The position numbers and the translations under genes were made by a program. Under the pieces are notes generated by a model. That model made no database searches, was not told the DNA's origin, and worked only from the letters and a program-made list of their open reading frames with translations. 64,000 nt of DNA from a virus. This document shows positions 1-21,277 of this stretch, piece after piece. The DNA is taken from IMG/VR virus record IMGVR_UViG_3300029551_000174, positions 62,603 through 126,602 of that record; one strand, given 5' to 3'. The number at the start of each line of letters is the position of its first letter. Position 1 is the stretch's first letter.

Positions 1-619
1 AGATGGTTTTCTTGATACCAATTTACATACTTTAGCATCAGAAAAGGAGGCGAAATCTTTTATCAAATGTATTGAGGAAAAATTAGGTGGCAAACTCAAT
101 CGTGAGACTCTTGAAGTAGAGAAGACTCAGCCAGAGTTCAAGGATGGGGATATAGTAACTATGCATAAGAAAAACTGTGATATAGTGTTCATTTTTAATA
201 GACTGAAAACTGAAGGTTCTTTCTATTATTACGCTTTCCATGCACTCCAAACAAATACAGGTATAATAGATTGTCATACTACATTGCCTTGTGCGTGGAC
301 ATTTTTTGAGGGCAAAATGAATTTTGCCACAGACTCAGAGAAGCAGCAGCTCTTTGGTGCTCTCGCAAAGGAAGGCAAGGCTTGGGATGCTGATAAGAAA
401 ATGATTGTGAACTTGAAGCCAAAGATTGAGCTGAAACCATTCGATAAGGTGTTGGTAAGAAATCAAAAAACAGAGGAATGGAGTGCAAATATATTTAGCC
501 ATACAGATAAGACTGATGAATATCTTGACTATGTATGTGTTAATGGCAGATGGGAGTTCTGCATCCCTTACATCGGTAATGAGCATTTGTTAGGTACAAC
601 TAAAGATGTGGAGGTATGA
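1..619 (+). CDS. hypothetical protein, 5'-partial (start lies upstream of window); paralog of CDS 45067..46035
   Basis: Open frame from nt 1 to stop at 617-619. nt 1-170 are ~98% identical to 45421-45590, and the C-terminal 90 aa (SEKQQLF.ALAKEGKAWDA...GNEHLLGTTKDVE) align to the C-terminus of 45067..46035. Confidence 0.55.
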   Translation, partial: DGFLDTNLHTLASEKEAKSFIKCIEEKLGGKLNRETLEVEKTQPEFKDGDIVTMHKKNCDIVFIFNRLKTEGSFYYYAFHALQTNTGIIDCHTTLPCAWTFFEGKMNFATDSEKQQLFGALAKEGKAWDADKKMIVNLKPKIELKPFDKVLVRNQKTEEWSANIFSHTDKTDEYLDYVCVNGRWEFCIPYIGNEHLLGTTKDVEV

Positions 620-667: not shown

Positions 668-1270
668 GTGCGTGCATTGAAGACCAACTTCATTGAGAAT
701 GTGGATTTTATCAGTATTGCCAAAAATGGCAAAACTGCAACAGGTGGTTACAAAGAGGTTAGCTATCACCTCACCTCCGCTTGTTTGGAATATTTTGTTG
801 CTCGCAAGGTTCGTCCGGTGTTTGAAGTGTACCGCAAGGTCTTTCATTGTGTAGCACAAGGCATCATACCTTCTTATCAGATTGAAGACCCAATTGAGAG
901 AGCGAAGCGTTGGATAATGGAGCAGGAAGAGAAGAAAGCCATTGAGGAAAAGAACAAGGAAATGCAGCCAAAGGCAGAATACTTTGACAACTTAGTTGAC
1001 AAAGGTTTGCTTACGAACTTCCGAGATACAGCAAAGGAGATTGGTATGAAGCAGAATCTGTTCATCAAAACCTTGATTAAGAAAAAATACGTCTATCGTG
1101 ATAAACAGAATCACATTAAGCCATATTCGCAATACAATGGTGACTTGTTTAAGGTGAAAGACTGGGGAAACGACAAAGTTGTAGGTACAAGAACACTAAT
1201 CACACCAAAGGGAAAGGAGACATTCAGACTGCTTTTCGGAAATGGTAATATGCCTTCGTTGAATTTCTAG
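668..1270 (+). CDS. AntA/KilA-C type phage antirepressor-like protein
   Basis: GTG start. The N-terminal region resembles the AntA domain (KEVSYHLT..CLEYFV...VFEVYRK). The C-terminal KilA-C-like block (NLVDKGLLTN..KQNLF.K.L......NGDLFKVKDWG...TLITPKGKETF) resembles the C-terminal half of 3073..3999. Confidence 0.55.
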   Translation: MRALKTNFIENVDFISIAKNGKTATGGYKEVSYHLTSACLEYFVARKVRPVFEVYRKVFHCVAQGIIPSYQIEDPIERAKRWIMEQEEKKAIEEKNKEMQPKAEYFDNLVDKGLLTNFRDTAKEIGMKQNLFIKTLIKKKYVYRDKQNHIKPYSQYNGDLFKVKDWGNDKVVGTRTLITPKGKETFRLLFGNGNMPSLNF

Positions 1271-1274
1271 GTAA

Positions 1275-1300
1275 AGGGAGAGGAATATCATTTCCCCTCC
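1275..1300. terminator. Bidirectional hairpin terminator between convergent genes (gggagaggaata-catttcccctcc)
   Basis: Inverted repeat. A near-identical copy occurs at 17836-17862. Confidence 0.5.
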
Positions 1301-1367
1301 TTTGCCTTAATCTCCAGCTCGATAGGCTTGCCACAATGAGGGCAAACAAATGTTGGCTTAGATGGCT

Positions 1368-1691
1368 CTATTTCATATTTGAAGAAGTTTCCAGCTTGTC
1401 AACAATAGAACGAAGTTCTTGCAAGGAAGACGCTACAAATGTATCTCCATTTTCTGAGCGGACAAATGCACAGAAGTTAAACCTAGGCGAACACTCGCAG
1501 TAGATGTCTTCTGGGTCAACAAACAATTGCCAAGTTGGAATACCAAGAAGTTGTGCTATTTCTTCCAACCTCGCTTTTGTAGGGTTGCCATTGATAATGT
1601 TAGGGATACTTTGCTTGGTTATCCCTAACATCTTAGCAAAAGTAGTCTTTGTGATGCCTTTTTGCTTTAATATTTCTTCTAGTCTATACAT
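1368..1691 (-). CDS. XRE-family helix-turn-helix transcriptional regulator (CI/Cro-like), copy 1
   Basis: HTH signature (TKTTFAKMLGITKQSIPNIINGNPTKARLEEIAQLLGI). Divergent from the rightward genes across an AT-rich promoter region. Paralog of 18021..18269. Confidence 0.7.
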   Translation of the reverse strand: MYRLEEILKQKGITKTTFAKMLGITKQSIPNIINGNPTKARLEEIAQLLGIPTWQLFVDPEDIYCECSPRFNFCAFVRSENGDTFVASSLQELRSIVDKLETSSNMK

Positions 1692-1844
1692 ATTATATAT
1701 ATATTAAATGATTGTACGAACTTATTCGTTTGCAAAGGTACGATTAAATTACGAAAGTAAGAAGAGAATATTACTAATAAATGTGAATAAATATGGTGGT
1801 TTGAATATATTCGTACTAACAAAAGTTAAATATAAGAAGATTTT

Positions 1845-1890
1845 CATACTTTCTCTTGGTAATATGAGAAGATATTCGTACCTTTGCAAT
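1845..1890 (+). promoter_or_regulatory. Bacteroidetes sigma-A promoter (-7 'tacctttgca')
   Basis: TAnnTTTG -7 consensus at 1879-1888, upstream of CDS 1975. Confidence 0.5.
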
Positions 1891-1943
1891 GTCTTTAAGA
1901 GATAAAGGCTTTAAAGTTTAACTATCAATTGCTGTTATGCAGC

Positions 1944-1966
1944 CGAGTCGGCACTCGTAAAACGGT
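1944..1966 (+). promoter_or_regulatory. Leader hairpin variant (cgag-tcggca-ctcg + taaaacggt)
   Basis: Same architecture as 18550-18573 (cgtg-ttcggca-cacg + taaaacggt), with a compensatory stem change. Confidence 0.5.
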
Positions 1967-1974
1967 TTGAGGAT

Positions 1975-2313
1975 ATGACTACTTCAATTAAGAACAAGAT
2001 GAGAAAGGTAATGCAGTTGGCACATAGAGCCTATCAGTTGAAATCAAGTTCAATGTCTTGGGTTGAGTGCTTGAAACAGGCTTGGCAGGTCGTAAAGCTT
2101 GAGGCAGCGATGAAGACCAAGGTTGTAGAGTTCTTCTTTATGAAGATGAATGGTGAGGTAAGACAAGCCTTTGGTACTCTCCTTCAGAGCCACATTGACT
2201 ATACTCCAAATGGTACAGGGCATGCAGCATCAAGAGATTGCATCCGCTATTGGGATGAGGCAAAGGGTGCATGGAGACAATTCAAGGCTTATAACTTCTT
2301 GCGAGTTGCATAA
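1975..2313 (+). CDS. hypothetical protein (paralog of 18799..19128)
   Basis: 112 aa. About 40% identical to the 18799 product (…FFMK.NGE.R.AFGTL…RQFKA.N..RVA). Confidence 0.6.
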   Translation: MTTSIKNKMRKVMQLAHRAYQLKSSSMSWVECLKQAWQVVKLEAAMKTKVVEFFFMKMNGEVRQAFGTLLQSHIDYTPNGTGHAASRDCIRYWDEAKGAWRQFKAYNFLRVA

Positions 2314-2407
2314 AGATATATACACGTTCAAAGGTGTTTGGCGAGGCTTGATAGGGGGTGTGCCTTTAAACACCCCTTTAATTTAGGACTTTTAAAGTAT
2401 TTGAGAT

Positions 2408-2656
2408 ATGGAGACAAATATTAAGGTTATCAAGGTTGTAGGTTACAAGGGTCACAAGCTGACTTTGGTAGAAGACGTTTTTAGACAGCAGTCTGTACGC
2501 ATAGATGGTGTTGTTGAACCGGACTATGCTAGCATAGCCGATGCAAAACGAGTAATCAATGGTAAAGCCCCTAAATGGTTTGAGGATGGCTATATGTGGG
2601 ACGAAGCTAGCAAGAAGGTAGTGAAAGACCCTAACGCTTTTCGATGGGAGGAGTAA
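2408..2656 (+). CDS. hypothetical protein
   Basis: ORF in the co-directional gene series. Confidence 0.45.
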   Translation: METNIKVIKVVGYKGHKLTLVEDVFRQQSVRIDGVVEPDYASIADAKRVINGKAPKWFEDGYMWDEASKKVVKDPNAFRWEE

Positions 2657-2660
2657 GAAA

Positions 2661-2957
2661 ATGGATGAGAATTTCTTGAATGTGCTCTATATCGAACACA
2701 CAGACAAAATAGGCGTTTTAAAGGATGATAAGGGCGAAAGGGTATCAATTATCCTTGGGACAGACAAAACGCTTGTAGAACGCAAGAGAGAGGGTAAAAC
2801 GTACCTTCTTGTACCTTTGACAAAGAACCATACATTTGTCTGCAAGGGTGATAGTATTAATGTTGATGGTGAGCATATCAAGAGTGAAATCTTCTTCCGT
2901 AAGGATGGTGCTCAGTGGATTGAGATTGACAAAGAAACGTTATCTAAGGTAGCGTAA
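2661..2957 (+). CDS. hypothetical protein (paralog of 19522..19821)
   Basis: 98 aa. Motif NVLYIEH.DKIGVL...TYLLVPLTK.H.F.C....I.VDG..I.S.IFFRKD..QWI shared with the 19522 product. Confidence 0.6.
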   Translation: MDENFLNVLYIEHTDKIGVLKDDKGERVSIILGTDKTLVERKREGKTYLLVPLTKNHTFVCKGDSINVDGEHIKSEIFFRKDGAQWIEIDKETLSKVA

Positions 2958-3072
2958 TATATTATATAGGTTACTTGGCAGCGAGTCGTGAGCGGGACAC
3001 GACAGAAATATAAACTCCCACTGGTATGCTGCCAATAACCTTTTTTGTTTAACAATTTAAATTAGTTTTAAA

Positions 3073-3999
3073 ATGACAGGATTCAAAAGTGAAAATGTCG
3101 AATTGGAGGCTTTGCCAGTAGCCTCATCAGTTTTAAACAACTTCAAAGAAGGAGGTGTTAGAGTTGTAGAAATTATTGAGCATGACGGCAAGCAATCCGT
3201 GAACGCAAGGGAACTGCACCAAAAGTTGGGCAGCAAGCAGCAGTTTGCTAATTGGATTAGAAATCGTATTGAAAAGTACGGATTCGTTGAAAATCAAGAC
3301 TTTTGCTCATTTAATAAAGTTATTAAACGAGAAAATGGTGCTACAACAGTTACAGAGTATGCCCTTTCGCTAGATATGGCGAAGGAGTTGTGCATGGTTG
3401 AGAACAACGAGAAAGGCAGGATGATTCGCAAGTACTTTATTGAGGTTGAGAAGAAGGCTAGAACACAAAATCCATTTGCAATTCCTCAGACTTATTCTGA
3501 AGCCTTGCTTCTTGCTGCAAACCAAGCAAAGCAAATCGAAAAGCAGCAATTGGCATTGGAGCAGAAGAAAATTGAGAATGACAAGCTGGTTGCAGATGGT
3601 AAGCGCAAGGACGCAACCATAGTACGTATGAAGCCTAAAGAGGTATTCACGGATGCGGTTGCAGGTAGCAAGGGCAATTGCCTAGTTGGTGAGGTTGCGA
3701 AGTTGATAACCCAGAATGGCTACAAGATTGGCGAAAAGCAATTTTTTGCTTGGTTGCGTGATAATGGCTACCTTGGAAAGAAAGGAGAGCGTTACAATAT
3801 TCCTAACCAGCAGTATATGGGTAAGAATCCTTTGTTTTATATCAAGAGAGGTGTGCGACAGGGTGATAATGGAGTGTTGCACACGACAAGTACAACAATG
3901 CTGACACCAAAGGGACAGATTTATTTCGTAAACAAGTTCCTTGGAAAAGGAGGTTTGCAAGGCGATCTGTTTGCGAATGGTGAGGCACACGATAAATAA
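3073..3999 (+). CDS. Phage antirepressor, Bro-N domain + KilA-C domain
   Basis: N-terminus (VEIIEHDGKQSVNARELHQKLGSKQQFANWIRNRIEKYGFVENQDF) is typical of Bro-N. C-terminal KilA-C-like region. Paralogs at 20277..21158 and 16936..17688. Confidence 0.75.
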   Translation: MTGFKSENVELEALPVASSVLNNFKEGGVRVVEIIEHDGKQSVNARELHQKLGSKQQFANWIRNRIEKYGFVENQDFCSFNKVIKRENGATTVTEYALSLDMAKELCMVENNEKGRMIRKYFIEVEKKARTQNPFAIPQTYSEALLLAANQAKQIEKQQLALEQKKIENDKLVADGKRKDATIVRMKPKEVFTDAVAGSKGNCLVGEVAKLITQNGYKIGEKQFFAWLRDNGYLGKKGERYNIPNQQYMGKNPLFYIKRGVRQGDNGVLHTTSTTMLTPKGQIYFVNKFLGKGGLQGDLFANGEAHDK

Positions 4000-4003
4000 A
4001 CTG
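3979..4003 (+). promoter_or_regulatory. Conserved hairpin element overlapping the 3' end and stop codon of the antirepressor gene (ggtg-aggca-cacg + ataaataaactg)
   Basis: Motif; encodes the C-terminal residues GEAHDK*. Confidence 0.5.
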
Positions 4004-8531: not shown

Positions 8532-11500
8532 ATGTCAACGTTAGAATTTAATATCAAAGCGAATTTCGACCAAATCAAGCAAGCCAAGCAAGAGCTTGTA
8601 AGATTGCAAGGTGAGTTATTGAAGACTTCGAGAGCGACAGATAAATCTGTGGTTCAAGACCTCACGGATAAATATGCGGAACAAAAGCGTAAAGTAACCG
8701 AACTAAACGAAGCAATGGGTCGTTATATTATGGTAACGAGCAGCGATTATGCAAAGAAAATGCAATCTTTGACAAGGGAAGTATATGCTTTTGAATTGCA
8801 AGCCGACTCGTCCAGGCGAAAGATAGAGAAGCTTTCCAATGAGATAGCGAAGATGGAAAGCAAAATGCGCAGAGGTGGCCTTGATGTAGGAACAAGCGCA
8901 ATTCTTTCTGATAATATATCATCCAGCTATGCCTCGTTGAAAGACGAAAAGGCTAGACTGGAGAATCTTACGGGATTAGGTAAGCAAGCGAGACAAGAGT
9001 TACAGAATATGCAAACGGAATATGCTAAGTATTCGGGTTCTGTATCTCCTGCTAAGGATATGACCAATCAAATGACAAATGCATTTGCCCAAATGATTGC
9101 GGAAATGAAGCAAGCCCCTACTGTCGGTGAAGGTATTTCTTCATTATTTGGTCGTTTGAATGGAGACGCAAGGCAACTAGCTATGAGTTTGGTTGGAGGT
9201 CTGGGTCTTGAACAATTGGCTGAGCACATCTTTAACGTCCGCTCTCAATTCCAACAATTGGAAATTTCTTTTACGACAATGTTGGGTAGTGAGCAAAAGG
9301 CTGGTGCGCTTATGGATGAACTTATCCAAACTGCTGCTCGCACACCTTTCAACATGACAGACGTTACAGAAGGCGCAAAACAACTTTTAGCATATGGAAT
9401 TCAAGCCAATGAAGTAAATGACACCTTGGTACATTTGGGTGATATAGCTTCTGGCCTTAATGTTCCTTTGTCGCAGCTTGTTTATTTGTACGGCACGACC
9501 ATTTCGCAAGGAAGAATGTTTACAATTGACTTGCGTCAATTCATGGGTCGAGGCATTCCGATGGCAGAGACGTTGGGGCAAATCATGGGTAAGACCGTAT
9601 CCCAAGTGCAAGAAGCAGTAACGAAAGGTGAAGTCGGTGCAGACCTTGTGAAAGAAGCGATTGTGAGGATGTCAAGCGAGGGCAGCAAATTCGGAGGCCT
9701 GATGAGCAAGCAAGCCGAAACCCTTCAAGGTCGTTGGTCGAACATAGAAGATACGATAGACCAAGCAATCAACTCTATAGGACAAAAGACACAAGGAATC
9801 TTTGGAACAGGTCTTGACTTAATATCTTCTCTGATAGAGAATTGGGAAACTTTGGTTAAAGTTATTGGTTCAGCGGCTGTTATGGTCGGAACTTACAAAG
9901 CTGGCTTGATGGCAGCGGCAAGCATTCAGAAGGTTCAGAATGCTATGACAATGGCATCAATCACAGAGGAACTTGATTCTAAGTTAGGAGAGGCAAGAGA
10001 CCAAGAAAACAACTTCCGTTCCTTAAATGGTAAAGACACCAAGCAGTATCGGGCAAATAGATACAAGGCTTTAGGTGATGCTATTGCCGATACGTCAAAC
10101 ATCGGTGATGATAAGACCGAGAAAATCGTCTCAAAACAAATTGAGATGGCGAGAAACGAGGGGCTTATCACCGAGCAGATGGCTCAACAACTCCAAACAA
10201 AGCGAGATTTATTGGTTGCCCAGCAAAAGGCTGCTGATAATGAGCGTATGGAGTATGAGAACGCAAAGCGGACAAAAGAAATAGAAGAGGAAGCCGCACG
10301 ACAGAAGAGAGCCGATGCGGAAATGGCTGCTGAAATAAACGCAAAGGCTGCAAAGAAAGCCGCTATAGACGAGGCTAACAATACTCCTTTGGGTAAGGCT
10401 ATTCTTAACACAAATGCTATAGAGGAAAAGAAGAAACAGGCAGAGGTAAGCATTGAATTAGCCAAAGAAGAAGCAAGGGAACAACATGGAATTGTTGAGG
10501 AAATCGGTGCTCAAATCAAAAAACAAGAAGAACTTGTAGCCGCAAAAAAGGAGCAGGTAAAGTCTTCATACCAAAACGTGACTGATTTGGGCGGTTATGA
10601 TGATAGCTTTGGTGATGATTTGAAATTACGAGACCAAGCAGTAAATCAATATGTAGCTGAGCAGCAAAAGTTGAACGACCTCAAGCAGAAGAGTTATGAG
10701 GCTTCCCAAAAGGCATATATCGCAGACCAAAAAGTATTGGGTATGCAAGAAGACCTTAAAGGTGTAACCCAAGAGCTTAATCAAGCTATAGAGGAGGAAA
10801 ACCGAATCTATGGAGAAACTGGCTCTAATGCGGACGAGATAAACAAGCTGGTGAATGAGGGGGTTGCGGCAAAAGAGGGCGATACGGCTGCGGTTAATGC
10901 AAATACTGCTGCTAAACAAGGGAACACGTCAACAGAAAATGCCAACTCAACGGCACGAAACGCTAATACCGGAGCTACCACAAGACAATCTGCATCAAAT
11001 GTGGCAAACACAACCACAGAGAATGTTAATTCTGCGGCTACCGGAGCGAATACGGCTTCTCAAAACGTGAATACAAGTGCGAAGCAACGCAATTCCTTTG
11101 TTACTGGTATGATGTCAGTTGGTACAAAGGCAGCAACCTTGGCTCAATCGGCTTTTTCTTGGGCAACTAATGCTTTGACAACAAGCTTGCGTAGTCTTTG
11201 GGCTGCAATGCTTGCAAATCCATTGACAACTGTCATTACTTTAGTGAGCACAGCTATTTCTGTATTCTCTATGTTTGGTGACGAAACTGAAGATGTTGCG
11301 ACAAAGACAACAAATATGGGGAATAAAGCATCCGAGGCTAGTGCCAAGGTTCGTTCCCTGTTTGCTATCTTAGGGGCAGGCAAGGATGCGGAAAACCACA
11401 AAGAGACAATAGATGCATTGAAAAGCGCATACGAAGAGTATGGTGTAAAGCTCGATGAAACAATTATGAAGTCCGAAAACGAAGCTTCAAAGGTACAAGA

Positions 11501-14500
11501 GCTTATAAAGCATAAGGAAGATTTGATAGGCGTTATCGAAGAGCAAACTATTGCTATGCAACATCAAAATGCCGTGCAGCAGATTTATGATACATACAAG
11601 AACGAGAAGGATAAAGCTAAAACGAATTTCATAAATGCCACGGATGGTGTTCTTACCAAGGAACAAGCAGGAATGGCGACAATGGTGGTAAGCCAAGAAG
11701 ATTTGGATAAAATGGCGAAGCTGCAAGATGAAATCGATGGATTGGATGAAAGGACTAACAAGTACAAAGAAACAGTAGCAAAGCTACGATTAGTATCTGG
11801 AAATGTATACAAGGATATTGAAGCGTACTATCTCAATCTGGGATTGACAAAAGAACAAATATCAGAAATAACCGCTGAGACATATAGCTATATTGCAGCA
11901 AGCACACGTGCCAATGTAAATAAGCAAAAGTCTCTTGAGATGGAGGATAAGTCAAGAGCGGCAGCAGAGAAAACAAGGAATGCTATTAATAATCTTTCAG
12001 GTAGTACAAAGGAGAATGCCGAACGTAACAGGTTGGCGAAAAAGTCATTTAAGGAAATGGCTGTTGAAATGGATGAAATCCGAAAGATTTGCGAGAGAAC
12101 TTATCATATGAAAATCAAGGTGGATTATGATGATAAATCATTGCCGGCTTGGATTAAGAATATGTCTCAGAGCCAAAGAGTAGAAAGTGCAAGAGCAAGA
12201 TTGGCATGGTTGAAAGCCCATAAGCCAGGAGATACAACAAAGAAGTTTGGTGGTGTAAATAAGGATTATTGGACTATTTATAATGAAAACCGAGGGCTTC
12301 AATACAAGGGGGAAAAGGTAGAGAGTACACCAACCGAGACTGAGGCTCAGAGAAAGAAACGTCTCGCTGCTGAAGCTAAGAAAAAACGTGAAGCGGAACG
12401 TGCGGCAACTAAGGCAGAGCGTGAAGCAAATCAAAAGGAGACGATGGCTGGTAACAAGCGCAAGGCTGAGGAGGACTATTCCAAGTCTATTTCATCCTAT
12501 TCGGAGAGAGCAAGCGATGAGTTGTCAAAGCGAAGAACGGAATTGATTAAGAATGAGACCGAAAAGGAGATTGCTCAAATTAATATGTCTTCAGACAAGG
12601 AGAAAAAGGCTATAGAGGATTCTATTGACAAACTCGTTGAGGCTAAGAAGAAGAAAGACCAGATCGTTTGGGTAAATTCGGGAAAAGGTCGTAAAGCCAA
12701 CATGTGGAAACAGGGTAAGTCCGATGCGGAATACCGCAAAGAGGTCTTGGACACACAAATGGTTGACGACAAGGGTAATCATCTTGGGAAGACCATTGGG
12801 CAGAACTCAGAAGACCAAATTGCCTTGATTGAGAAACAGAGGCAATTAAAGCTGAAGGAAATACAGCAAGCAGAGATTAAGGACATGTTGGATTTCATGA
12901 AGCAATACGGCAGCTTAGAGCAACAACGTTATGCTATTCTGAAAGAATACACGGACAAGATAGACCTTGCTAGAGAGAAAGGTGATACTTTTGGCGCAGC
13001 GAGTGCGGAAATGGAGATGAACGACCAGTTGAAGAAGTTGAATTTTACGGATTTCAAGGATTCTATCAATTGGGATGTTGTCTTTCAGGATATGAACCGA
13101 TTGAGTATTCCTTATCTTGAAGACCTTCGCAAGAAGATGAAGGAGTTGCTTGGTTCGGGTACGTTGGAAATTGATGACATGAAATCCGTATCTGACCAAA
13201 TCTACAAGATTGATGATGCGATTTCCGAGCAGAAGGATAGATGGGGATTGGTTAATGATGCAGTCCGTGAACACCGTAGGCTTATTGATGAGGCAAAGGA
13301 TGCGCAAGACCGATTGGCACAAGCTAGGAAGGGGGAGTTTGATGCCAAGGCTGATAATATGAGCCAAAGGAGAAAAATCCAAGGCGTGTTTGCAGAAAGT
13401 GGGGTTAACATAGATACCAGTAATATCACTTCTGCCAATAAGGACAAACTTATGAGTTCTACCAAGAATCTCAGTGTAAGCCAAACGGAGAAGTTACGTA
13501 AGCTTTTTGATGATTTGGCGGTTTCAGAGGTTAAGGTTGGAAAGGCAACAAAGGAAGTTGGAAAGGCACAGGAAGAAGCCAAGGTAAAGCAGGATGCTGC
13601 AAAGAAGAGCTTGCATGATACTATAGAGGAATGGGCTGAGGGCTTGAGGAAAATCCAAGAGAAGCTGAAAGACCTTCCTGGGTTAGTCGATGCGTTAGGT
13701 CTCGGAAGCACAGGCTTTGGTAAAGCTGTAAATAATGGAATGGATGCATTGAACAGTGGAACACAAGCCTTTTCTGATTTTGCAAGCGGAAACTACATAG
13801 GCGCAGCTATGAATGGAATAAAAACCATTAGCTCGTTGGGTAAGATGTTCGGTATTGGCGGAGGTAATGGTGCAGAAGTTGCGAAGAAAACAGAAGAGCT
13901 GACCGAGAGCAATGACAGATTGATGTATTCCATTGATAAGTTAAAAGAGTCTATTGACAAATCTTCCGGTTATACAGCCGTCAGCAACTATAATGCTGCT
14001 TACGATGCTCAAAAACAGGTTAACACCCAAACGATGGATATTCTCAAAACACAGATGGGGTATCATGGGGCACACCATTCAAATGCTTATTATTGGAATC
14101 TTTCTGCACAAGATTATGCGGCAATCAATAAGACTTTGGCTGAGCAAAGTAAGATAAGGGGTGGTTATACTAATTCTTCGATAAACAAGGTCAATTCCTT
14201 GGAGGATATATACAAGCTCACTCCAGAGCAGATGGCTGACATTCGTACACATAATGCGGATGTATGGAAGAACATGACCGACCAAGGCAAGTATGATAAG
14301 ACGGAATATTGGGAGCAATATACAGAACTGGCGGGAAAACTAGAGGAGTTGACGGAGCAAATCAATGAGAATTTGACTCAAACAACCTTTGATTCGATGA
14401 AGAGTGACTTCATAAACAATCTTATGGATATGAGTAAGTCTGCAAAGGATTTTTCTAATGACTTCACTACAATGCTCAACCAGTCGATGCTTAACTTCGC

Positions 14501-15065: not shown

Positions 15066-15070
15066 TACAA

Positions 15071-15130
15071 AAGGTGTGGAGAAATACAACTAAGCGCATG
15101 TATGCGTCCAGATGCAAGTCTCCACACCTT
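15071..15130 (+). terminator. Long hairpin after the tape-measure gene (aaggtgtggaga ... tctccacacctt)
   Basis: 12-bp inverted repeat enclosing a 36-nt loop. Followed by a second hairpin, gggaaa-aa-tttccc. Confidence 0.45.
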
Positions 15131-15865: not shown

Positions 15866-15977
15866 CAGATTTGGGCTAGTACGAGGGCGCAAAATTGCTT
15901 TCTCGTTGATTATCAAGCGTTACCCCAAAAAGTTAGTACGAGAGCCTAAAAATCGGCTATCGTTGAAAATCAAGATG
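15866..15977. repeat. Two tandem ~45-bp imperfect direct repeats (TAGTACGAG-R-GC..AAAA(T)..CGTTGA..ATCAAG)
   Basis: 15870-15918 (tagtacgagggcgcaaaattgctttctcgttgattatcaagcg) versus 15929-15974 (tagtacgagagcctaaaaatcggctatcgttgaaaatcaag). Confidence 0.6.
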
Positions 15978-16856: not shown

Positions 16857-16898
16857 TCCGATTTCCACATTATAGGAATAATAGCTTAATTTTTAGAG

Positions 16899-16921
16899 CG
16901 TGAGTCACACGTTAAAAACTG
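16899..16921 (+). promoter_or_regulatory. Conserved leader hairpin element (cgtg-agtca-cacg + ttaaaaactg)
   Basis: Motif family. Confidence 0.5.
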
Positions 16922-16935
16922 AAAAGGAAAATAGA

Positions 16936-17688
16936 ATGAATGAGATTAAAGTGATTAACAAGTCAATGCTTCTTGGAAAGGAGATTGACGTGTATGGAAC
17001 TGCTGATGAGCCTTTGTTTAAGGCAAAGGACGTGGCAAGTTGGTTGGATATTCAGAATGTTTCTGACATGATAAAGAATATCGACCAAGATGAAAAGGTG
17101 TTAGATTCAATCTATACCCTTGGTGGAACACAAGAAGTTTGGTTGCTTACTGAGGATGGGGTGTATGAGGTCTTGATGCAAAGCCGTAAGCCAGTAGCCA
17201 AGCAGTTCAAGAAAGGAGTGAAGACCATCTTGAAGTCTATTCGCAAGACAGGTGGCTATTCCGTGGCTGGAACTATTACTGATAAGACGAAGGCAGGCAT
17301 GATTTGGGTGAAAGGCTGCAAGGAGCTTTTGAACTTAAACGATGCATCAACACTTGCATTGATGCAAAAGGTAGCCGAACCTTTAGGCTTGCCAACTCCA
17401 GACTACGTAAGCAGTAAGGGTGTCTTGAAGTCTTTGAGTGTATTGCTTGAAGAGAAGGGCATTGGAATATCTACACAAGCATTTAACAAGCTCCTAGTCA
17501 AGGATGGTTTGTTGCAAGTGCTTTATAGAAAAAGTAGTAAAGGTAAGCAAAAACAATTCAAGAACATTACCGAGAAGGGCTTGCCTTATGGTGAGAACAA
17601 GCAAAACCCAAAGAATCAGTCTGAGACACAGCCTTTGTGGTATGAGGATAAGTTCGATGAGGTTTTGAAGATTGTAGGCTTATTGTAG
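16936..17688 (+). CDS. Bro-N domain antirepressor-like protein
   Basis: ATG start downstream of the hairpin, in place of the track's GTG inside the motif. Bro-N-like N-terminus. The C-terminal part (KVAEPLGLPTPDYVSS...) is homologous to the middle of 20277..21158 (KIAEPLGLPTPDYVSA, ...KGLAYGEN...TQP.WY..KF.EVL.I.G). Confidence 0.65.
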   Translation: MNEIKVINKSMLLGKEIDVYGTADEPLFKAKDVASWLDIQNVSDMIKNIDQDEKVLDSIYTLGGTQEVWLLTEDGVYEVLMQSRKPVAKQFKKGVKTILKSIRKTGGYSVAGTITDKTKAGMIWVKGCKELLNLNDASTLALMQKVAEPLGLPTPDYVSSKGVLKSLSVLLEEKGIGISTQAFNKLLVKDGLLQVLYRKSSKGKQKQFKNITEKGLPYGENKQNPKNQSETQPLWYEDKFDEVLKIVGLL

Positions 17689-18020: not shown

Positions 18021-18269
18021 TTATCCCTCCACCTTAATATTGATAGGCTTACCACAATGAGGGCAAGTAAAGATTGGCTTGGTTGGTTCTATTTCATCTT
18101 TAAAGAAGTCACCAACTTTGCACCCTAATACATCAGCAATACGTAGCAATGTCTTCATCGTTGGGTTACGGCTGAGGTTTTGGGTGAAAGTAAATCTTGT
18201 AATACCCATTTCTTTTGCTACCTGTTCGATAGTAAATCCCTTTTCTTTGATAATTGTTTTAACGTCCAT
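18021..18269 (-). CDS. XRE-family HTH regulator with C-terminal zinc ribbon (CPHCGKPI), copy 2
   Basis: HTH (FTIEQVAKEMGITRFTFTQNLSRNPTMKTLLRIADVLG) followed by C-x-x-C. Confidence 0.7.
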   Translation of the reverse strand: MDVKTIIKEKGFTIEQVAKEMGITRFTFTQNLSRNPTMKTLLRIADVLGCKVGDFFKDEIEPTKPIFTCPHCGKPINIKVEG

Positions 18270-18454
18270 ATTTCTTATATATATTAATGTGAGACTTTAT
18301 TTTGTGTGCAAAGATAATACATATAAATGAAACTACCAAATTTTTTCTTTGTTTTGTGCAGGTAAGTTCTAACAATGTGAATAAAAGTAAAGAATAAAAT
18401 CTAAATTATCTTATTTTGTTAATGATTGTTTATATTCTAACATTTTCTCTCAAA

Positions 18455-18497
18455 TTGTTTGGTATGTTAGAATATATTTTGTATCTTTGCATCGTGA
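18455..18497 (+). promoter_or_regulatory. Bacteroidetes promoter (-7 'ttgtatctttgca') plus the shared leader 'tcgtgattaagaaacaaaggt'
   Basis: Consensus. The leader resembles the 22805 and 44465 cassettes. Confidence 0.5.
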
Positions 18498-18549
18498 TTA
18501 AGAAACAAAGGTCACAAGAACATTATTAATTTAGTTGAGGCAGCGCCTC

Positions 18550-18573
18550 CGTGTTCGGCACACGTAAAACGGT
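18550..18573 (+). promoter_or_regulatory. Leader hairpin variant (cgtg-ttcggca-cacg + taaaacggt)
   Basis: Pairs with the 1944-1966 variant. Confidence 0.5.
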
Positions 18574-18581
18574 ATAGCAAT

Positions 18582-18764
18582 ATGACTACTTCAATGATAA
18601 GAAGAAACTTGATTCAGAAGTTCGTTATGACAGAGTTCGTAAGCAACAGAATGAACACCCAAAAGGACGTTGATAGAATGTTGAATATGATAACAATAAA
18701 GCTCAATATGAACAACGATGAGGCTAAGAGCTTCTTGCGTGAGAGCATCGGACTTGCAAAGTAA
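18582..18764 (+). CDS. hypothetical small protein
   Basis: 60-aa ORF after the leader hairpin. Confidence 0.4.
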   Translation: MTTSMIRRNLIQKFVMTEFVSNRMNTQKDVDRMLNMITIKLNMNNDEAKSFLRESIGLAK

Positions 18765-18798
18765 GTAATTTAAGTTTAACGTTTAAAATTGAAAGATT

Positions 18799-19128
18799 AT
18801 GGCTACTACATTTAAGAATATGATGAGAGAAGTGATGAAGCTTGCTTGGCAGTTCATCAAGAAGAATGGCTACACAATGAGCGAGGCTTTAAAGGTCGCT
18901 TGGATGAACATCAAGCTGAAGGGTCAGATGAAGAAGCGCATCGTGAAGTTCTACTTCCAGAAGGTTGATGGCAGCTTGCGTGAGGCATTCGGCACATTGA
19001 GCGAGAAGGTTATCCCAGCTACACAGGGTGCAGGTCGCAAGATGAATGACACTTGCCAAGTGTACTTTGATACCGAGAAAGAAGAATGGCGTTGCTTCAA
19101 GAAGGCAAACCTTATGAGAGTTGCATAA
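18799..19128 (+). CDS. hypothetical protein (paralog of 1975..2313)
   Basis: Alignment. Confidence 0.6.
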   Translation: MATTFKNMMREVMKLAWQFIKKNGYTMSEALKVAWMNIKLKGQMKKRIVKFYFQKVDGSLREAFGTLSEKVIPATQGAGRKMNDTCQVYFDTEKEEWRCFKKANLMRVA

Positions 19129-19160: not shown

Positions 19161-19460
19161 ATGAGCGCAAAGATTATCGTGATGCAAGGCAACATGGTTG
19201 CAACCATCGAAGAGACGAACAAGGACGCATTTCTCAAGCGTGGAGAGTATAAAGAGACCGATCTGGACAGACATAAGCGTGAGGTCGATTTCTTGATTAC
19301 AAGCATCGCTAACCGCTACGAAGTGACATTCAATCACAAGGTAGAGCTGAAGGAAAGCCGAAGCATCAAGAAAAGCGAGTATTTCGATAACATCTACTAC
19401 GTTACCGAGAATGCATTGAACAAGCTGAAAAAGCAATACTCATACGAGTGTGACTTGTAA
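19161..19460 (+). CDS. hypothetical protein
   Basis: ORF in series. Confidence 0.45.
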   Translation: MSAKIIVMQGNMVATIEETNKDAFLKRGEYKETDLDRHKREVDFLITSIANRYEVTFNHKVELKESRSIKKSEYFDNIYYVTENALNKLKKQYSYECDL

Positions 19461-19521: not shown

Positions 19522-19821
19522 ATGGATAAGAATTTGATGGATGCTCTTTACGTTGAGCATGATGGCAAGATTGGCGTTTTAAGCTCAGATGAGTACAAGG
19601 TGGTATCACAGGTTATCGGCACGGATTTGACGCTTGTGTACGACAAGAAAGAGGGTAATACGTACCTTTTGATACCACTAACCCGAAAACATAAGTTCGA
19701 ATGCAATTGTAGTCACATTATCGTGGATGGCAAGCGGTTCGATTCTGACATCTTTTTCCGCAAGGATGCTTGCCAATGGATTCAGATGCAATCAAAAGAA
19801 ATGCTATTAATGGTAGCGTAA
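19522..19821 (+). CDS. hypothetical protein (paralog of 2661..2957)
   Basis: Start moved to the internal ATG matching the paralog N-terminus (MDKNLMDALYVEHDGKIGVL). Confidence 0.55.
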   Translation: MDKNLMDALYVEHDGKIGVLSSDEYKVVSQVIGTDLTLVYDKKEGNTYLLIPLTRKHKFECNCSHIIVDGKRFDSDIFFRKDACQWIQMQSKEMLLMVA

Positions 19822-19858: not shown

Positions 19859-20276
19859 ATTATCTTTGAGGTTTAACAATTAATTCCGTGAGCAATGGAA
19901 AGAAGAAGTAATGTGCAGCACCGTGCCTTGAAAGTTGGTCGTGCTGGCGATGGCAGAAGTCCTCCAATGTCAAACGAATGTTAATGTTTTAAATAAAACA
20001 CTAAAGCATTTGCAAGTTAGAGAAAATAGCATTAACTTTGCAGCCGAAAGTTATAATGGTTGTGAAGCGAAGAGCACGACTGGAAAGAAATTGAGAATTG
20101 TAAAAATAACACATAAATTTCATTTACTCCAAGCGTGGAGTATCGTCATTCCGTCCTTCTCTTCGCTTTAATGGATGGTTGACACAAGCCCTGTCCGCAC
20201 TTTCCACATTAGCGGATGGGGCTTTTCGTTTCCACCACAGCCAAATGTAATTATTAACAATTTAAATTTTAGGTAA

Positions 20277-21158
20277 ATGACATTAGAATTTAACAAAACT
20301 GATGTAAATGTAGAGGCTTTACCAGTAGTCTCAGAGTTCCTTAACAAAGAAAAGAGAGGTATTGAAGTTGTAGAGATTATCGAGCATGACGGCAAACAAG
20401 CCGTGAACGCAAGGGAGCTGCACCAAAAGTTGGGCAGTAAGCAAGACTTTTCAACATGGATTAAAAATCGCATAGAAAAGTATGGATTCGTTGAAAATCA
20501 AGATTTTGAAGTTTTCCACAAAATTATGGAAAACTCAAATGGTGGTCGAAGTCGTATTGAGTATGCCTTATCTTTGGATATGGCAAAGGAGTTGTGTATG
20601 ATAGAGAACAATGAGCAAGGTAGATTGTTCCGTAAGTACTTCATCGAAGTCGAGAAAGTTGCCAGAGTCAAGTACGAGCAGGAGAAGCTGGACAAGAAGG
20701 CTTCCGATTCCTTTGACATCAAGCTGAAGTGGTTGAACTTTCTTCCTGGTTATCTGAACCTCAGCGATGTTTCCAAATTGGCGATGGCTAAGAAAATTGC
20801 TGAACCATTAGGGTTGCCGACACCTGATTATGTGAGCGCACCGAATGGTGCAAAGCATTCCGCTACGGAGTTATTGAAATCTCATGGTGTAGGCTTGTCT
20901 GCTCGAAAGTTCAATGAGTTGGCGGTAAAGGCAGGATTATTGAAGCTAAAAGAGCGCAAGGGTACGAACAAGGTACACAAGTATTGTGAGATTACCAAGA
21001 AAGGATTGGCTTATGGTGAGAACGACATCAACGAGAAGAATATGAATCAAACACAACCACATTGGTATGATTCTAAATTTGGGGAGGTATTGGAAATCAT
21101 CGGCTACAAGTCATCCAAGCAAGTAGATATGTTTGCAAGCGGTGAGACACACGATTAA
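20277..21158 (+). CDS. Phage antirepressor, Bro-N domain protein
   Basis: N-terminus (VEIIEHDGKQAVNARELHQKLGSKQDFSTWIKNRIEKYGFVENQDF) is ~90% identical to 3073..3999. The C-terminus differs and matches 16936..17688. Confidence 0.75.
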   Translation: MTLEFNKTDVNVEALPVVSEFLNKEKRGIEVVEIIEHDGKQAVNARELHQKLGSKQDFSTWIKNRIEKYGFVENQDFEVFHKIMENSNGGRSRIEYALSLDMAKELCMIENNEQGRLFRKYFIEVEKVARVKYEQEKLDKKASDSFDIKLKWLNFLPGYLNLSDVSKLAMAKKIAEPLGLPTPDYVSAPNGAKHSATELLKSHGVGLSARKFNELAVKAGLLKLKERKGTNKVHKYCEITKKGLAYGENDINEKNMNQTQPHWYDSKFGEVLEIIGYKSSKQVDMFASGETHD

Positions 21159-21165: not shown

Positions 21166-21277
21166 TAATATTGATATATAATCGAGAAGGAGGGGAATGC
21201 GTGATGCACTCTCCTCTTTTTTATGTCTGAAAGTTTTTGTTTTTCACAATATAGATAAGTGTTGTTAAACTGAATGC

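What the first reader, a model, noticed from the sequence alone, without database searches (positions are those of the whole stretch)
1296..4003. Duplicated immunity-like module: leftward HTH regulator, then rightward small genes and a Bro-N antirepressor, present twice
Module A (1368-3999) and module B (18021-21158) have the same gene order with pairwise homologous products. The HTH regulators are 1368..1691 and 18021..18269. The 110-aa proteins are 1975 and 18799. The 98-aa proteins are 2661 and 19522. The antirepressors are 3073 and 20277, whose N-termini are ~90% identical. Each has a divergent AT-rich promoter region between the HTH gene and the rightward genes, a CI/Cro-like layout. Two paralogous switch regions in one phage genome, plus two more antirepressor-type genes (668, 16936), is unusual. 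It suggests a layered or heteroimmune antirepressor-based decision circuit.
Basis: seen in the sequence. Interest (0 to 1): 0.6.

Follow-up and report, generated by a model that had tools for sequence, protein, structure and literature searches.

The report
Duplicated secondary-immunity cassettes in gut phage
A large temperate phage of human-gut Bacteroidales carries two related copies of a small self-regulated gene cassette ending in an antirepressor gene. Its repressor-operator pair, and a previously undescribed structured RNA in front of one antirepressor, come in many interchangeable specificities, which is what competition between related phages would produce.

Summary
Modules A (1273-3999) and B (17835-21225) are paralogous beyond the antirepressor domain: WYL_2 proteins 43% identical, 98-aa proteins 54%, HTH 36%, antirepressor N-domains 69%. 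They also share a 5'-UTR element and a flanking hairpin.

Corrections:
- The antirepressor N-domains are AntA, not Bro-N.
- The first rightward gene is a WYL_2 protein, not a Cro.
- These are not the phage's main switch. In relatives, a conserved S24 CI-like repressor, an integrase and prophage-host junctions lie just right of the window.

About 240 related loci add four points:
- The small HTH gene occurs in at least 12 types in otherwise 93-99% identical genomes.
- Each type has its own 7-10 bp repeat over both divergent promoters.
- Cassettes within one genome never share a type.
- The second cassette is accessory and sits at either of two sites flanking the tape-measure gene.

The module-B antirepressor has its own promoter and a ~200-nt pseudoknotted RNA with 7 co-varying pairing types. 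Rfam has no matching family.

Best reading: secondary immunity cassettes working like P22 immI and P1/P7 immI. DNA binding, repression and the antirepressor's target are inferred, not shown.

The parts
1273..1303 (.). Hairpin GGGAGAGGAAT..ATTTCCCCTCC between the upstream ANT gene (668-1270) and the module-A HTH gene. Left edge of the homology with module B.
   Evidence: Read directly. The same hairpin is at 17835-17860.
1321..1397 (-). Remnant of the zinc-ribbon-like C-terminal tail (CPHCGKPIE..) of a B-type HTH gene, overlapping the 3' end of the present A HTH gene. A scar of HTH gene replacement.
   Evidence: 83% identical to 18042-18118. In relative L001 a B-type HTH gene occupies this place.
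1368..1691 (-). Module A regulator: 107-aa XRE-type HTH protein (type T8) with a C-terminal tail of the DFIALIKQG/..LDKLE kind.
   Evidence: Pfam HTH_3 6e-10; PHROG transcriptional regulator/repressor families; typing.
1692..1974 (.). Module A control region. Leftward -7 box TACCTTTGC (1740-1732) and rightward -7 box TACCTTTGC (1879-1887). Type-specific repeats: TATTCGTAC at 1808-1816 and 1873-1881, a one-mismatch copy at 1738-1746 (-), and the inverted pair GTACGAA / TTATTCGT at 1714-1729. Conserved 5'-UTR element at 1943-1966 with hairpin CGAGT-CGGC-ACTCG.
   Evidence: Sequence. The exact 9-mer occurs only here in 64 kb. Repeat/type matrix. 5'-UTR element.
1975..2313 (+). WYL_2 (DUF2693) protein, 112 aa: two N-terminal helices plus a Sm/SH3-like barrel.
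2408..2656 (+). 82-aa protein with no family. Sits where module B has its unrelated 99-aa protein.
   Evidence: 80-82% conserved in relatives.
2661..2957 (+). 98-aa all-beta protein, restricted to this phage group.
2968..3052 (+). Long hairpin followed by UUUUUUGUUU between the 98-aa gene and the antirepressor gene; terminator/attenuator-like.
   Evidence: MFE -28.5 kcal/mol, z -2.4; sequence.
3073..3999 (+). Antirepressor-family protein, AntA N-domain plus ANT/KilAC C-domain. Present at this position in only about 3 of 80 relatives.
   Evidence: Pfam AntA 5e-27, ANT 4e-25; PHROG anti-repressor Ant 8e-61; distribution.
18021..18269 (-). Module B regulator: 82-aa XRE-type HTH protein (type T1) with a CPHCGKPI zinc-ribbon-like tail.
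   Evidence: Pfam HTH_26 6e-10, HTH_3 7e-8; typing.
18270..18581 (.). Module B control region. Divergent Bacteroidota-type promoters at 18340-18308 (-) and 18458-18490 (+). Repeats TTCTAACA(A/T) at 18367-18375, 18435-18443 and 18464-18472 (-). 5'-UTR element at 18549-18573 with hairpin CGTGT-TCGGC-ACACG, a compensatory change relative to module A.
   Evidence: Promoter pattern: 10 hits against 0.65 expected. Repeats. 5'-UTR.
18582..18764 (+). 60-aa ORF found only in some cassettes. It starts with the same MTTS codons as the module-A WYL_2 gene.
18799..19128 (+). WYL_2 protein, 109 aa. 69% identical to gp17 of the temperate Bacteroides phage BS-TP2, where it is the first rightward gene across from the leftward genes that include the S24 repressor.
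   Evidence: Pfam 7e-24.
19161..19460 (+). 99-aa protein with no family, 99% conserved in accessory cassettes.
19522..19821 (+). 98-aa family paralogue. The true start is the ATG at 19522, not the GTG at 19450.
   Evidence: 54% identity to the 2661 protein; alignment.
20009..20041 (+). Separate Bacteroidota-type promoter TTTGCAAGTTAGAG..TAACTTTGC in front of the RNA and antirepressor gene. It does not vary with the HTH type.
20045..20245 (+). Structured RNA of about 200 nt.
- P1: 20058-20064 with 20236-20242.
- S1: 20067-20074.
- P2: 20127-20140.
- P3: about 20145-20184, with loop segment S2 at 20159-20166.
- P4: 20186-20224, followed by a U-run at 20223-20232.
S1 pairs with S2 to form a pseudoknot.
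   Evidence: MFE -72.4 kcal/mol, z -5.3. 96.9% of cells paired and 11 pairs changed on both sides; 0/500 shuffles reach those values; slid controls 35-47%. Seven S1 types, each complementary in cis to a loop. No Rfam family.
20277..21158 (+). Antirepressor-family protein: AntA N-domain plus a C-domain shared with the Bro-N protein of 16900-17688.
   Evidence: Pfam AntA 5e-29; PHROG Ant 2e-44; BLASTP.
21190..21225 (+). Terminator hairpin GGAGGGGAATGCGTGATGCACTCTCCTC plus T-run. In relatives without module B it directly follows the tape-measure gene, so it marks the right edge of the 6.2-kb insertion 15066-21190.
   Evidence: Junction comparison with L002.
668..1270 (+). Extra antirepressor-type gene (truncated AntA plus ANT/KilAC), upstream of and convergent with the module-A HTH gene. 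Present in a minority of relatives.
16900..17688 (+). Extra antirepressor-type gene (Bro-N plus the C-domain shared with the 20277 protein), inside the same 6.2-kb insertion as module B.
   Evidence: Pfam Bro-N 2e-17.

Best explanation
The two modules are paralogous copies of an accessory regulatory cassette in a roughly 115-125 kb temperate siphophage of human-gut Bacteroidales.

How each cassette is built:
- A small XRE-type repressor is made leftward.
- It is proposed to bind type-specific 7-10 bp repeats. These overlap the -7 box and spacer of the rightward promoter and the start of its own transcript. It would thereby shut off itself and a rightward operon.
- That operon holds a WYL_2 small nucleic-acid-binding protein, a small unknown protein and a 98-aa beta protein.
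- An antirepressor gene sits at the 3' end. In module A it lies behind a terminator-like hairpin. In module B it lies behind its own constant promoter and a ~200-nt pseudoknotted RNA ending in a terminator-like hairpin.

The phage's real lysogeny switch is a conserved CI-like S24 repressor next to an integrase, about 5-9 kb right of the window.

The cassettes therefore work like secondary immunity regions (P22 immI: mnt-arc-ant; P1/P7 immI: c4 RNA-icd-ant). In a lysogen, the small repressor and the RNA pairing keep the operon and the antirepressor silent. They also silence the same cassette type of an incoming relative. An incoming phage with a different specificity escapes and makes its antirepressor, which neutralises the shared S24 repressor. 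That arms race would explain three things: many repressor/operator types and RNA pairing types; different types in the 2-3 cassettes of one genome; and the come-and-go of the second cassette.

Shown: paralogy; domain content; promoters by consensus; repeat/type co-variation; RNA covariation; S24 repressor, integrase and prophage junctions in relatives.

Inferred: DNA binding and repression; the RNA's effect on antirepressor expression; the antirepressor's target; the immunity phenotype.
For: - Paralogy across four genes plus non-coding elements.
- The HTH gene is hypervariable. There are 11 types below 70% identity plus one more, in genomes whose flanking genes are 93-99% identical. A scar of a replaced HTH gene lies at 1321-1397.
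- Each type has its own repeat, 3-5 copies per control region against about 0 copies of other types' repeats. The motifs were picked from each type's own region, so this comparison is partly circular. The repeats sit at conserved positions overlapping both promoters.
- Within type T1, two near-identical proteins differ at ISRVTF/ITRFTF and go with different repeats, TCATACA and TCTAACA.
- Bacteroidota promoter consensus: 10 hits against 0.65 expected, including both module-B promoters.
- Cassettes of one genome never share a type: 0 of 36, and 0 among the 13 multi-cassette genomes of a second, overlapping set of 40. One genome has three cassettes of three types.
- Temperate lifestyle and a plausible antirepressor target: S24 repressor 93-100% identical in about 65 relatives; tyrosine integrase beside it; sharp common breakpoint with host-like DNA (46-48% GC; HU-HIG and amidase genes) in some contigs.
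- WYL_2 is the first or second gene across from a repressor in other Bacteroidales prophages. At least 11 of 22 nearest leftward genes are HTH_3, and 2 match Peptidase_S24.
- The same cassette with a pRha+ANT antirepressor sits next to the tape-measure gene in a more distant lineage.
- RNA: z -5.3, 11 covarying pairs, 7 pairing types all matched in cis. Its promoter is independent of the HTH type.
- Literature parallels. P22 immI lies inside the late operon and is very variable among P22-like phages (PMC8022706). P1/P7 heteroimmunity is ascribed to small differences in immI (PMC6906374). Antirepressors act in trans on non-cognate prophages (PMC3121763).
Against: - No experiment. HTH binding, the sign of regulation and the antirepressor's target are all inferred.
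- The HTH gene and control region are adjacent, so their co-variation partly reflects linkage. Single-region repeat statistics are modest (P 0.000-0.3 per type; type 5 shows no clear repeat).
- The core operon (WYL_2 plus small proteins) has no known function, and the antirepressor is optional. About 3 of 80 relatives have it in module A, and minimal cassettes lack it. So 'antirepressor control' cannot be the whole purpose.
- First-site and second-site HTH type pools are largely disjoint, so 'never the same type' is weak as independent evidence.
- The S24 repressor and integrase were seen in relatives (97-100% identical in the adjoining gene), not in the window itself.
- The RNA's pairing partner lies within the RNA, not at the antirepressor's ribosome-binding site as in P1.
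Confidence: 0.55

Rival explanations
1. Captured immunity regions used as decoy immunity. Each cassette would be the repressor/early-promoter end of another, smaller temperate Bacteroidales phage. The small repressor would protect the lysogen by repressing incoming heterologous phages that use the same operators. The downstream genes would be passengers.
For: - WYL_2 next to a repressor is the usual early-region layout in other Bacteroidales prophages.
- Small HTH proteins with the same CPHCGK or DFIALIKQG-like tails occur there.
- The module-B WYL_2 is 69% identical to BS-TP2 gp17, closer than to its own paralogue.
- The second cassette is accessory and mobile.
Against: - The whole operon, not only the repressor, is conserved at 93-99% at site 1 in all 80 relatives.
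- The cassette keeps its own 5'-UTR element.
- The same cassette-plus-antirepressor layout recurs beside the tape-measure gene in a distant lineage.
- It was not checked whether any free-living phage uses one of these operator types as its main switch.
Confidence: 0.15
2. Ordinary temporal control of an accessory early operon. The HTH would be a Cro-like shut-off factor for lytic growth only. Its variety would be neutral mosaicism from recombination between relatives, with no immunity role.
For: - Divergent promoters with autoregulation are generic.
- The cassette promoters belong to a promoter/leader family used elsewhere in the genome.
- The region is recombination-prone: inversions, and two insertion sites.
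Against: - Neutral mosaicism does not explain why only the HTH domain plus operators are replaced. Flanks stay 93-99% identical, and the replacement has occurred at least 12 times.
- It does not explain why a second, independent specificity layer (RNA pairing, 7 types) sits in the same cassette.
Confidence: 0.2
3. A defence, anti-defence or toxin-antitoxin cassette, with the HTH protein as its regulator in the manner of WYL/HTH regulators of defence islands.
For: - WYL-fold matches to BrxR and CapW.
- Weak PADLOC HTH matches, for example PDC-M69A at 3e-7.
- The cassette is accessory and mobile.
Against: - No PADLOC hit for any operon protein.
- No nuclease, NTPase or toxin domain.
- The WYL_2 protein lacks the fused HTH of BrxR/CapW.
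- The cargo is antirepressor-family.
Confidence: 0.07

Closest known systems
P22 secondary immunity region immI (mnt - arc - ant, with sar antisense RNA)
   Same: - An antirepressor gene has its own dedicated small repressor and sits apart from the primary CI-type repressor.
- It is embedded among virion genes, here next to the tape-measure gene. In P22 it lies between genes 16 and 9 in the late operon.
- Its presence varies among close relatives (PMC8022706).
   Different: - The regulators here are XRE HTH proteins, not ribbon-helix-helix Mnt/Arc.
- The operon starts with WYL_2 and two unknown small proteins.
- There are up to three cassettes per genome and at least 12 specificities.
- There is no significant match to sar RNA (18 bits against a gathering score of 43, E 0.76).
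P1/P7 immI (c4 antisense RNA - icd - ant)
   Same: - A structured RNA lies just upstream of the antirepressor gene, on the same strand and behind a constant promoter.
- Short complementary segments change together between relatives. In P1/P7, small immI differences are credited with heteroimmunity (PMC6906374).
   Different: - No sequence or structure homology: no Rfam hit.
- The co-varying partner of S1 is a hairpin loop within the same RNA (a pseudoknot), not the ribosome-binding region of the downstream gene.
- Trans action is untested.
Transcription factor - small protein induction modules of polylysogens (Silpe et al. 2023, PMC10432266)
   Same: A regulator gene lies next to genes for small proteins that act on the master repressor independently of DNA damage. 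The modules are sequence-diverse but share one logic.
   Different: - There the factor activates its neighbour. Here operator-like repeats overlap the core promoter, which suggests repression.
- The effector here is a large AntA-family protein plus unknown small proteins.
Lambda-type CI/Cro switch
   Same: Divergent promoters share an operator-bearing intergenic region, and immunity-type replacement of repressor plus operators occurs among relatives.
   Different: - The module regulator has no S24 or CI C-terminal domain.
- There is no Cro-type HTH as the first rightward gene.
- The CI-like S24 repressor of this phage is elsewhere and is conserved.
Trans-acting antirepressors of Gifsy prophages (Lemire et al. 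2011, PMC3121763)
   Same: Several antirepressor genes serve one lysogeny circuit, with possible cross-talk between related prophages.
   Different: Those are controlled by LexA. Here each has a private, diversified repressor or RNA.

Membership tests
Pfam AntA (PF08346) + ANT/KilAC (PF03374) antirepressor family | Significant match to the family profiles above the curated cut-offs | tested here: met
   - 3073 protein: AntA 94.9 bits (cut-off 27) and ANT 88.8 bits (cut-off 25.3).
- 20277 protein: AntA 101 bits, no ANT domain.

   No Bro-N hit for 3073 or 20277. Only the 16900 protein matches, at 64 bits.
Pfam WYL_2 (PF10902, DUF2693) | Profile match and Sm/SH3-like barrel fold | tested here: met
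P22-type immI secondary immunity region | Antirepressor gene separate from the primary repressor locus, in a phage that has a CI-type primary repressor | tested here: met
   The S24 repressor plus integrase lie right of the window in relatives. The antirepressor genes are 40-60 kb away.
P22-type immI secondary immunity region | Dedicated repressor whose operator overlaps the ant promoter | tested here: inconclusive
   Type-specific repeats overlap the rightward promoter of the operon. However, the module-B antirepressor has a further promoter without such repeats. Binding was not tested.
P22-type immI secondary immunity region | Ribbon-helix-helix regulators Mnt and Arc; sar antisense RNA | tested here: not met
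   The regulators are HTH_3/HTH_26. The sar model scores 18 bits against a gathering score of 43.
P22-type immI secondary immunity region | Antirepressor protein inactivates the primary repressor | not testable with these tools
   Needs protein interaction or induction assays.
P1/P7-type immI (c4 RNA) | Membership of the C4 antisense RNA family | tested here: not met
   No C4 hit, even at E up to 10, on 19800-20400.
P1/P7-type immI (c4 RNA) | RNA upstream of ant with complementary segments that co-vary between relatives | tested here: met
   Seven S1 types, each complementary (7-8 nt in the extracted segments) to a loop in cis, in 16 of 16 distinct combinations. A shuffled S1 reaches 7 nt in 1.5% of trials. 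Five of the 8 pseudoknot pairs show changes on both sides.
P1/P7-type immI (c4 RNA) | The RNA blocks translation or transcription of the downstream ant operon by pairing with its leader | not testable with these tools
   No significant complementarity of the P4 loop elsewhere in the window (12 near-matches against 10.5 expected by chance). Needs reporter assays.
Lambda-type CI/Cro switch | CI-type repressor (HTH plus S24/oligomerisation domain) opposite a Cro-type HTH gene | tested here: not met
   The module regulators are 82 and 107 aa with no S24 domain. The first rightward gene is WYL_2.

The most novel reading that the evidence does not exclude
The ~200-nt RNA in front of the accessory antirepressor gene is a new class of immunity RNA. 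Its 8-9-nt S1 segment and hairpin loops would act as a lock and key, in cis and between co-resident or incoming phage genomes, deciding whether the antirepressor is made. Together with the independently assorting repressor/operator types, this would give the phage population a combinatorial two-layer (protein-DNA and RNA-RNA) heteroimmunity code on top of one shared CI-like repressor. The WYL_2 protein would be a nucleic-acid sensor feeding into the same decision.
Probability: 0.3. Interest if true: 0.8.

Novelty: new variant of a known kind. Interest (0 to 1): 0.6.

Why it matters
Little is known about how temperate phages of gut Bacteroidales decide between lysogeny and lysis, or how they compete inside one host.

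This phage family is common in human-gut metagenomes (hundreds of IMG/VR contigs) and offers a natural experiment. It has one conserved primary repressor. On top of that sit swappable cassettes with at least 12 repressor/operator specificities and 7 RNA pairing specificities.

If the immunity reading holds:
- It extends the P22 and P1 secondary-immunity paradigms to another bacterial phylum.
- It supplies orthogonal repressor/operator pairs and RNA pairs for Bacteroides genetics.
- It gives testable predictions for which prophages cross-induce or exclude each other in the gut.

The structured RNA and the WYL_2 protein at the head of early operons are uncharacterised elements in their own right.

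Tried and rejected
- The sigma-70 promoter and simple terminator scans were uninformative; hits were at shuffle level. I replaced them with the Bacteroidota consensus TTTG-N18-22-TAnnTTTGC.
- PDB sequence searches for the WYL_2 and 98-aa proteins found nothing significant.
- PADLOC gave only generic HTH hits, so I gave the defence-system reading a low weight.
- Rfam gave only tRNAs at gathering score over the whole window. In permissive mode on 19800-20400 there was nothing significant.
- I considered the phage virulent at first: a ~120 kb siphovirus with almost all window genes on one strand and no integrase in the window. The S24 repressor, integrase and prophage-host junctions in relatives rejected this.
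- I checked whether the phage is LoVEphage. That phage has a retroelement, and no LoVEphage record appeared among the near matches in the phage collection. Left open, probably a different family.
- I checked whether Ant genes generally follow WYL_2 in other Bacteroidales prophages. By eye only 1 of 23 loci has one, so the link is specific to this cassette lineage.
- A search for a trans target of the P4 loop in the window found nothing above chance.
- Single-region repeat enrichment against shuffles is only moderate in AT-rich DNA. The argument rests on the cross-type comparison instead.

Full report
**1. What is in the sequence**

- Module A:
  - HTH gene 1368-1691 (-)
  - 112-aa gene 1975-2313
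  - 82-aa gene 2408-2656
  - 98-aa gene 2661-2957
  - 308-aa gene 3073-3999
- Module B:
  - HTH gene 18021-18269 (-)
  - 60-aa ORF 18582-18764
  - 109-aa gene 18799-19128
  - 99-aa gene 19161-19460
  - 98-aa-type gene 19522-19821
  - 293-aa gene 20277-21158

Pairwise BLASTP gives:

| Pair | Identity | E-value |
|---|---|---|
| 112-aa vs 109-aa | 43% | 2e-26 |
| 98-aa pair | 54% | 5e-35 |
| First 129 residues of the two large proteins | 69% | 3e-60 |
| HTH domains | 36% | 1.5e-7 |

The middle genes (82 aa against 60 and 99 aa) are unrelated.

Similarity extends to non-coding DNA:
- A hairpin lies left of each HTH gene.
- 1321-1397 matches 18042-18118 at 83%.
- An 18-nt 5'-UTR element occurs at 1949-1966 and 18556-18573. 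The window has three matches, two of them in the modules and one weak, against 0.04 expected by chance.

**2. Domain content**

- The regulators are XRE-type HTH proteins (HTH_3, HTH_26).
- The 112-aa and 109-aa proteins are WYL_2/DUF2693.
- The 82-, 99-, 60- and 98-aa proteins have no family.
- The two large proteins carry an AntA N-domain, not Bro-N.
- The 3073 protein adds an ANT/KilAC C-domain.
- The 20277 protein instead has a C-domain that is 39% identical to that of the Bro-N protein encoded at 16900-17688.
- The 668-1270 protein is ANT/KilAC with a truncated AntA.

So the four antirepressor-type genes combine N-domains (AntA, Bro-N) with C-domains (KilAC, a second type). A more distant lineage uses a pRha N-domain in the same cassette position.

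**3. What kind of genome this is**

In the window, a 2177-aa tape-measure protein gene (8532-15065) lies between the two modules. The window also holds the following:
- a major capsid gene
- ThyX and RNase H
- five tRNAs
- several DNA methylases and a Mom-like gene
- RtcB
- a leftward replication/recombination cluster at its right end

No cultured relative exists; the closest records are two unannotated human-faecal scaffolds. IMG/VR holds hundreds of relatives, with the longest contigs clustering at about 115-128 kb.

Promoters fit the Bacteroidota consensus TTTG-N18-22-TAnnTTTGC: 10 hits against 0.65 expected. WYL_2 homologues occur almost only in Bacteroidales genomes.

The window itself has no integrase. 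Relatives whose adjoining gene (window 63502-63936) is 97-100% identical continue rightwards for about 5 kb, through a Rad52-like gene, to the following:
- a 376-aa protein with three N-terminal HTH-like repeats (by eye) and a Peptidase_S24 domain, transcribed divergently
- a 399-aa tyrosine integrase next to it

All contigs share a sharp breakpoint 182 bp past the S24 gene. Beyond it lies either the integrase (the phage form) or unrelated DNA. In three contigs that DNA has 46-48% GC and carries HU-HIG and amidase genes (the prophage-host junction form).

The family is therefore temperate, and its primary switch is not in either module. The S24 repressor is 93-100% identical in about 65 relatives.

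**4. Comparative anatomy of the modules**

Eighty loci around the 98-aa gene show:
- The core of module A (HTH, WYL_2, 82 aa, 98 aa) sits at a fixed place in all.
- The antirepressor gene follows it in only about three.

A second cassette occupies one of two sites:
- Site 2: inverted, between the equivalents of window 5789 and 5905.
- Site 3: direct, between the tape-measure gene and thyX, as in the window.

In 40 genomes where both regions were recovered:

| Arrangement | Genomes |
|---|---|
| Second cassette at site 2 | 12 |
| Second cassette at site 3 | 15 |
| Cassettes at both sites | 1 |
| No second cassette | 8 |
| Site-1 HTH not recovered (two with site 2, two with site 3) | 4 |

The same cassette types occur at both sites.

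In the window, 15066-21190 is a 6.2-kb insertion relative to scaffold MT835576. It ends at a terminator that otherwise follows the tape-measure gene. Minimal cassettes consist of HTH, (60 aa), WYL_2 and 99 aa only. The antirepressor and the 98-aa gene are therefore optional.

**5. The key result: repressor/operator types**

The genes on either side are 93-99% identical between relatives. The HTH gene, by contrast, falls into 11 clusters below 70% identity, plus one further type, with two alternative C-terminal tails.

The replaced segment runs from inside the HTH gene to just before the rightward -7 box. The window keeps a scar of a displaced B-type tail at 1321-1397.

Every type comes with its own intergenic sequence, which carries 3-5 copies of a type-specific 7-10-bp repeat. 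Examples:
- TATTCGTAC (window module A)
- TTCTAACA (window module B)
- TACGTTACA
- TAATATTAGAA
- ATACGA
- AAGTAAT

Copies lie at conserved positions: in the leader of the HTH gene, at about +100, at about +140-165, and in the spacer/-7 box of the rightward promoter.

The repeat-by-type matrix is diagonal: 3-5 copies against about 0. The motifs were picked from each type's own region, so this is partly circular.

Two near-identical T1 proteins differ at ISRVTF/ITRFTF and go with different repeats.

In the window, the exact 9-mer TATTCGTAC occurs only in module A's control region.

Repeats that overlap core promoter elements argue for repression and autorepression. Binding itself is inferred.

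Cassettes of one genome never share a type. That held for 0 of 36 genomes, and for 0 among the 13 multi-cassette genomes of a second, overlapping set of 40. One genome has three cassettes of three types. The site-specific type pools are largely disjoint, so this is weak as independent evidence.

**6. A second specificity layer found in module B**

Between the 98-aa-type gene and the antirepressor gene lie:
- a separate consensus promoter at 20009-20041
- a ~200-nt RNA at about 20045-20245 that folds far better than shuffles (-72.4 kcal/mol, z -5.3)

On 17 distinct variants, RNAalifold and pair counting support an outer stem and three hairpins. The last hairpin is a 13-bp stem followed by a U-run. 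Figures:
- 96.9% of cells paired
- 11 pairs changed on both sides
- 0/500 shuffles reach those values
- slid controls reach 35-47% paired

An 8-9-nt 5' segment (S1; GCGAAGAG in the window) is hypervariable. Seven types were found in 134 copies. In every one of 16 distinct combinations, S1 is fully complementary to the loop of hairpin P3 or of hairpin P4 in the same RNA. A shuffled S1 reaches that length in 1.5% of trials.

Further observations:
- The other loop often matches the S1 of a different variant in the population, which leaves room for pairing in trans.
- The RNA's promoter does not vary with the HTH type.
- HTH type and S1 type assort independently.
- Rfam has no matching family.

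In module A the antirepressor gene is preceded only by a long hairpin plus a U-run.

**7. The other operon proteins**

- In the temperate Bacteroides phage BS-TP2 and in 26 Bacteroidales genome loci, WYL_2 is the first or second gene of a rightward operon. The operon faces leftward genes whose nearest member is an HTH_3 protein in at least 11 of 22 cases and matches Peptidase_S24 in 2.
- Antirepressor genes do not generally follow it there.
- PADLOC finds no defence-system protein in the cassettes.

**8. Interpretation**

The best-supported reading is that the modules are secondary immunity cassettes. Each is a private, diversified repressor/operator pair controlling a small early operon. Antirepressor genes sit at the end, guarded by a terminator (module A) or by a pairing-specific RNA (module B). 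All of this rides on top of one conserved CI-like S24 repressor.

This is the logic of two known systems:
- P22 immI, which also lies among virion genes and is variably present in relatives (PMC8022706).
- P1/P7 immI, where an RNA upstream of ant and small sequence differences are credited with heteroimmunity (PMC6906374).

Trans-acting antirepressors that couple prophages are also known (PMC3121763). So are diverse regulator/small-protein induction modules (PMC10432266).

By membership, however, the cassettes are none of these:
- no ribbon-helix-helix regulators
- no sar or C4 RNA
- no Cro

Rival readings remain possible and are scored lower:
- decoy immunity from captured early regions
- plain temporal control with neutral mosaicism
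- a defence or anti-defence cassette

**9. Verdict**

'Layered, heteroimmune, antirepressor-linked' fits. 'CI/Cro-like switch' and 'Bro-N' do not.
- The finding is a new variant of a known kind.
- Three elements are worth experiments: the many orthogonal repressor/operator pairs, the WYL_2 protein at the head of Bacteroidales early operons, and an undescribed pseudoknotted RNA with seven pairing types.

Noticed in passing
window 20009-20245: Undescribed ~200-nt structured RNA with its own promoter, upstream of the module-B antirepressor gene. It has seven co-varying pseudoknot pairing types and occurs in at least 117 stretches of IMG/VR DNA. No Rfam family matches.
   Followed up: yes
window 22731-22864, 29336-29420, 44395-44527, 36781-36861, 63420-63498 (-), 23129-23177, 18452-18508: Family of promoter-plus-leader repeats: TTTGCATATTTCGAT..TATCTTTGCATCG, then GTGAGACACACCGTAAAAACTGT. 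The cassette promoters and their 5'-UTR element CGGCACTCGTAAAACGGT are variants of it. The role of the leader motif is unknown.
   Followed up: partly
window 15066-16158: About 1.1 kb without a sizeable ORF, right after the tape-measure gene and inside the 6.2-kb insertion. It has several hairpins built on GGGGTGT..ACACCCC-like arms. No Rfam hit at gathering score.
   Followed up: no
window 1-619 versus 45414-46030: Segmental duplication. 1-156 is 98% identical to 45414-45569. The 152-aa protein (161-619) is a paralogue of the C-terminal part of the 322-aa protein (45067-46035).
   Followed up: no
L114:3040-5799 and L159:1-4477 (relatives, right of the window): Primary lysogeny region: a 376-aa repressor (three HTH-like repeats by eye, plus Peptidase_S24) and a tyrosine integrase. 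A common breakpoint at about L114:4487 separates phage DNA from either the integrase or host-like DNA (46-48% GC; HU-HIG and amidase genes).
   Followed up: yes
L147 (IMGVR_UViG_3300045988_107542): A relative that lacks the S24 repressor gene and nearly all of the integrase gene (only 48 residues left). Possibly a natural obligately lytic deletion variant.
   Followed up: no
L269 and one locus: Rearranged relatives in which the block d157-d248-tape measure is inverted, or d248/d157 lie upstream of module A. The repeated cassettes may serve as substrates for inversion.
   Followed up: no
window 37627-42990: Dense DNA-modification cluster: one C5 cytosine methylase, three tandem N6/N4 methylases (39905-42130) and a Mom-family protein (42361-42990).
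   Followed up: no
window 28326-28763: Cluster of five tRNA genes (Glu, Gln, Tyr, Lys and one with an odd two-base anticodon call at 28614-28688). Relatives carry further tRNAs (Arg, Leu/Phe) near the right end.
   Followed up: no
window 26904-27728, 29507-30442, 53118-54323: Auxiliary genes unusual for a temperate siphophage: an SPFH/Band 7 protein, an amidoligase and an RtcB RNA ligase.
   Followed up: no
alignment A3 (98-aa family): The 98-aa family is itself mosaic. Some members join a B-type N-terminal half to an A-type C-terminal half (for example P0092). This shows recombination between cassette copies.
   Followed up: no
L001:11185-12438: An RRXRR + HNH endonuclease gene lies in the region left of the window in the related scaffold MT835610.
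   Followed up: no
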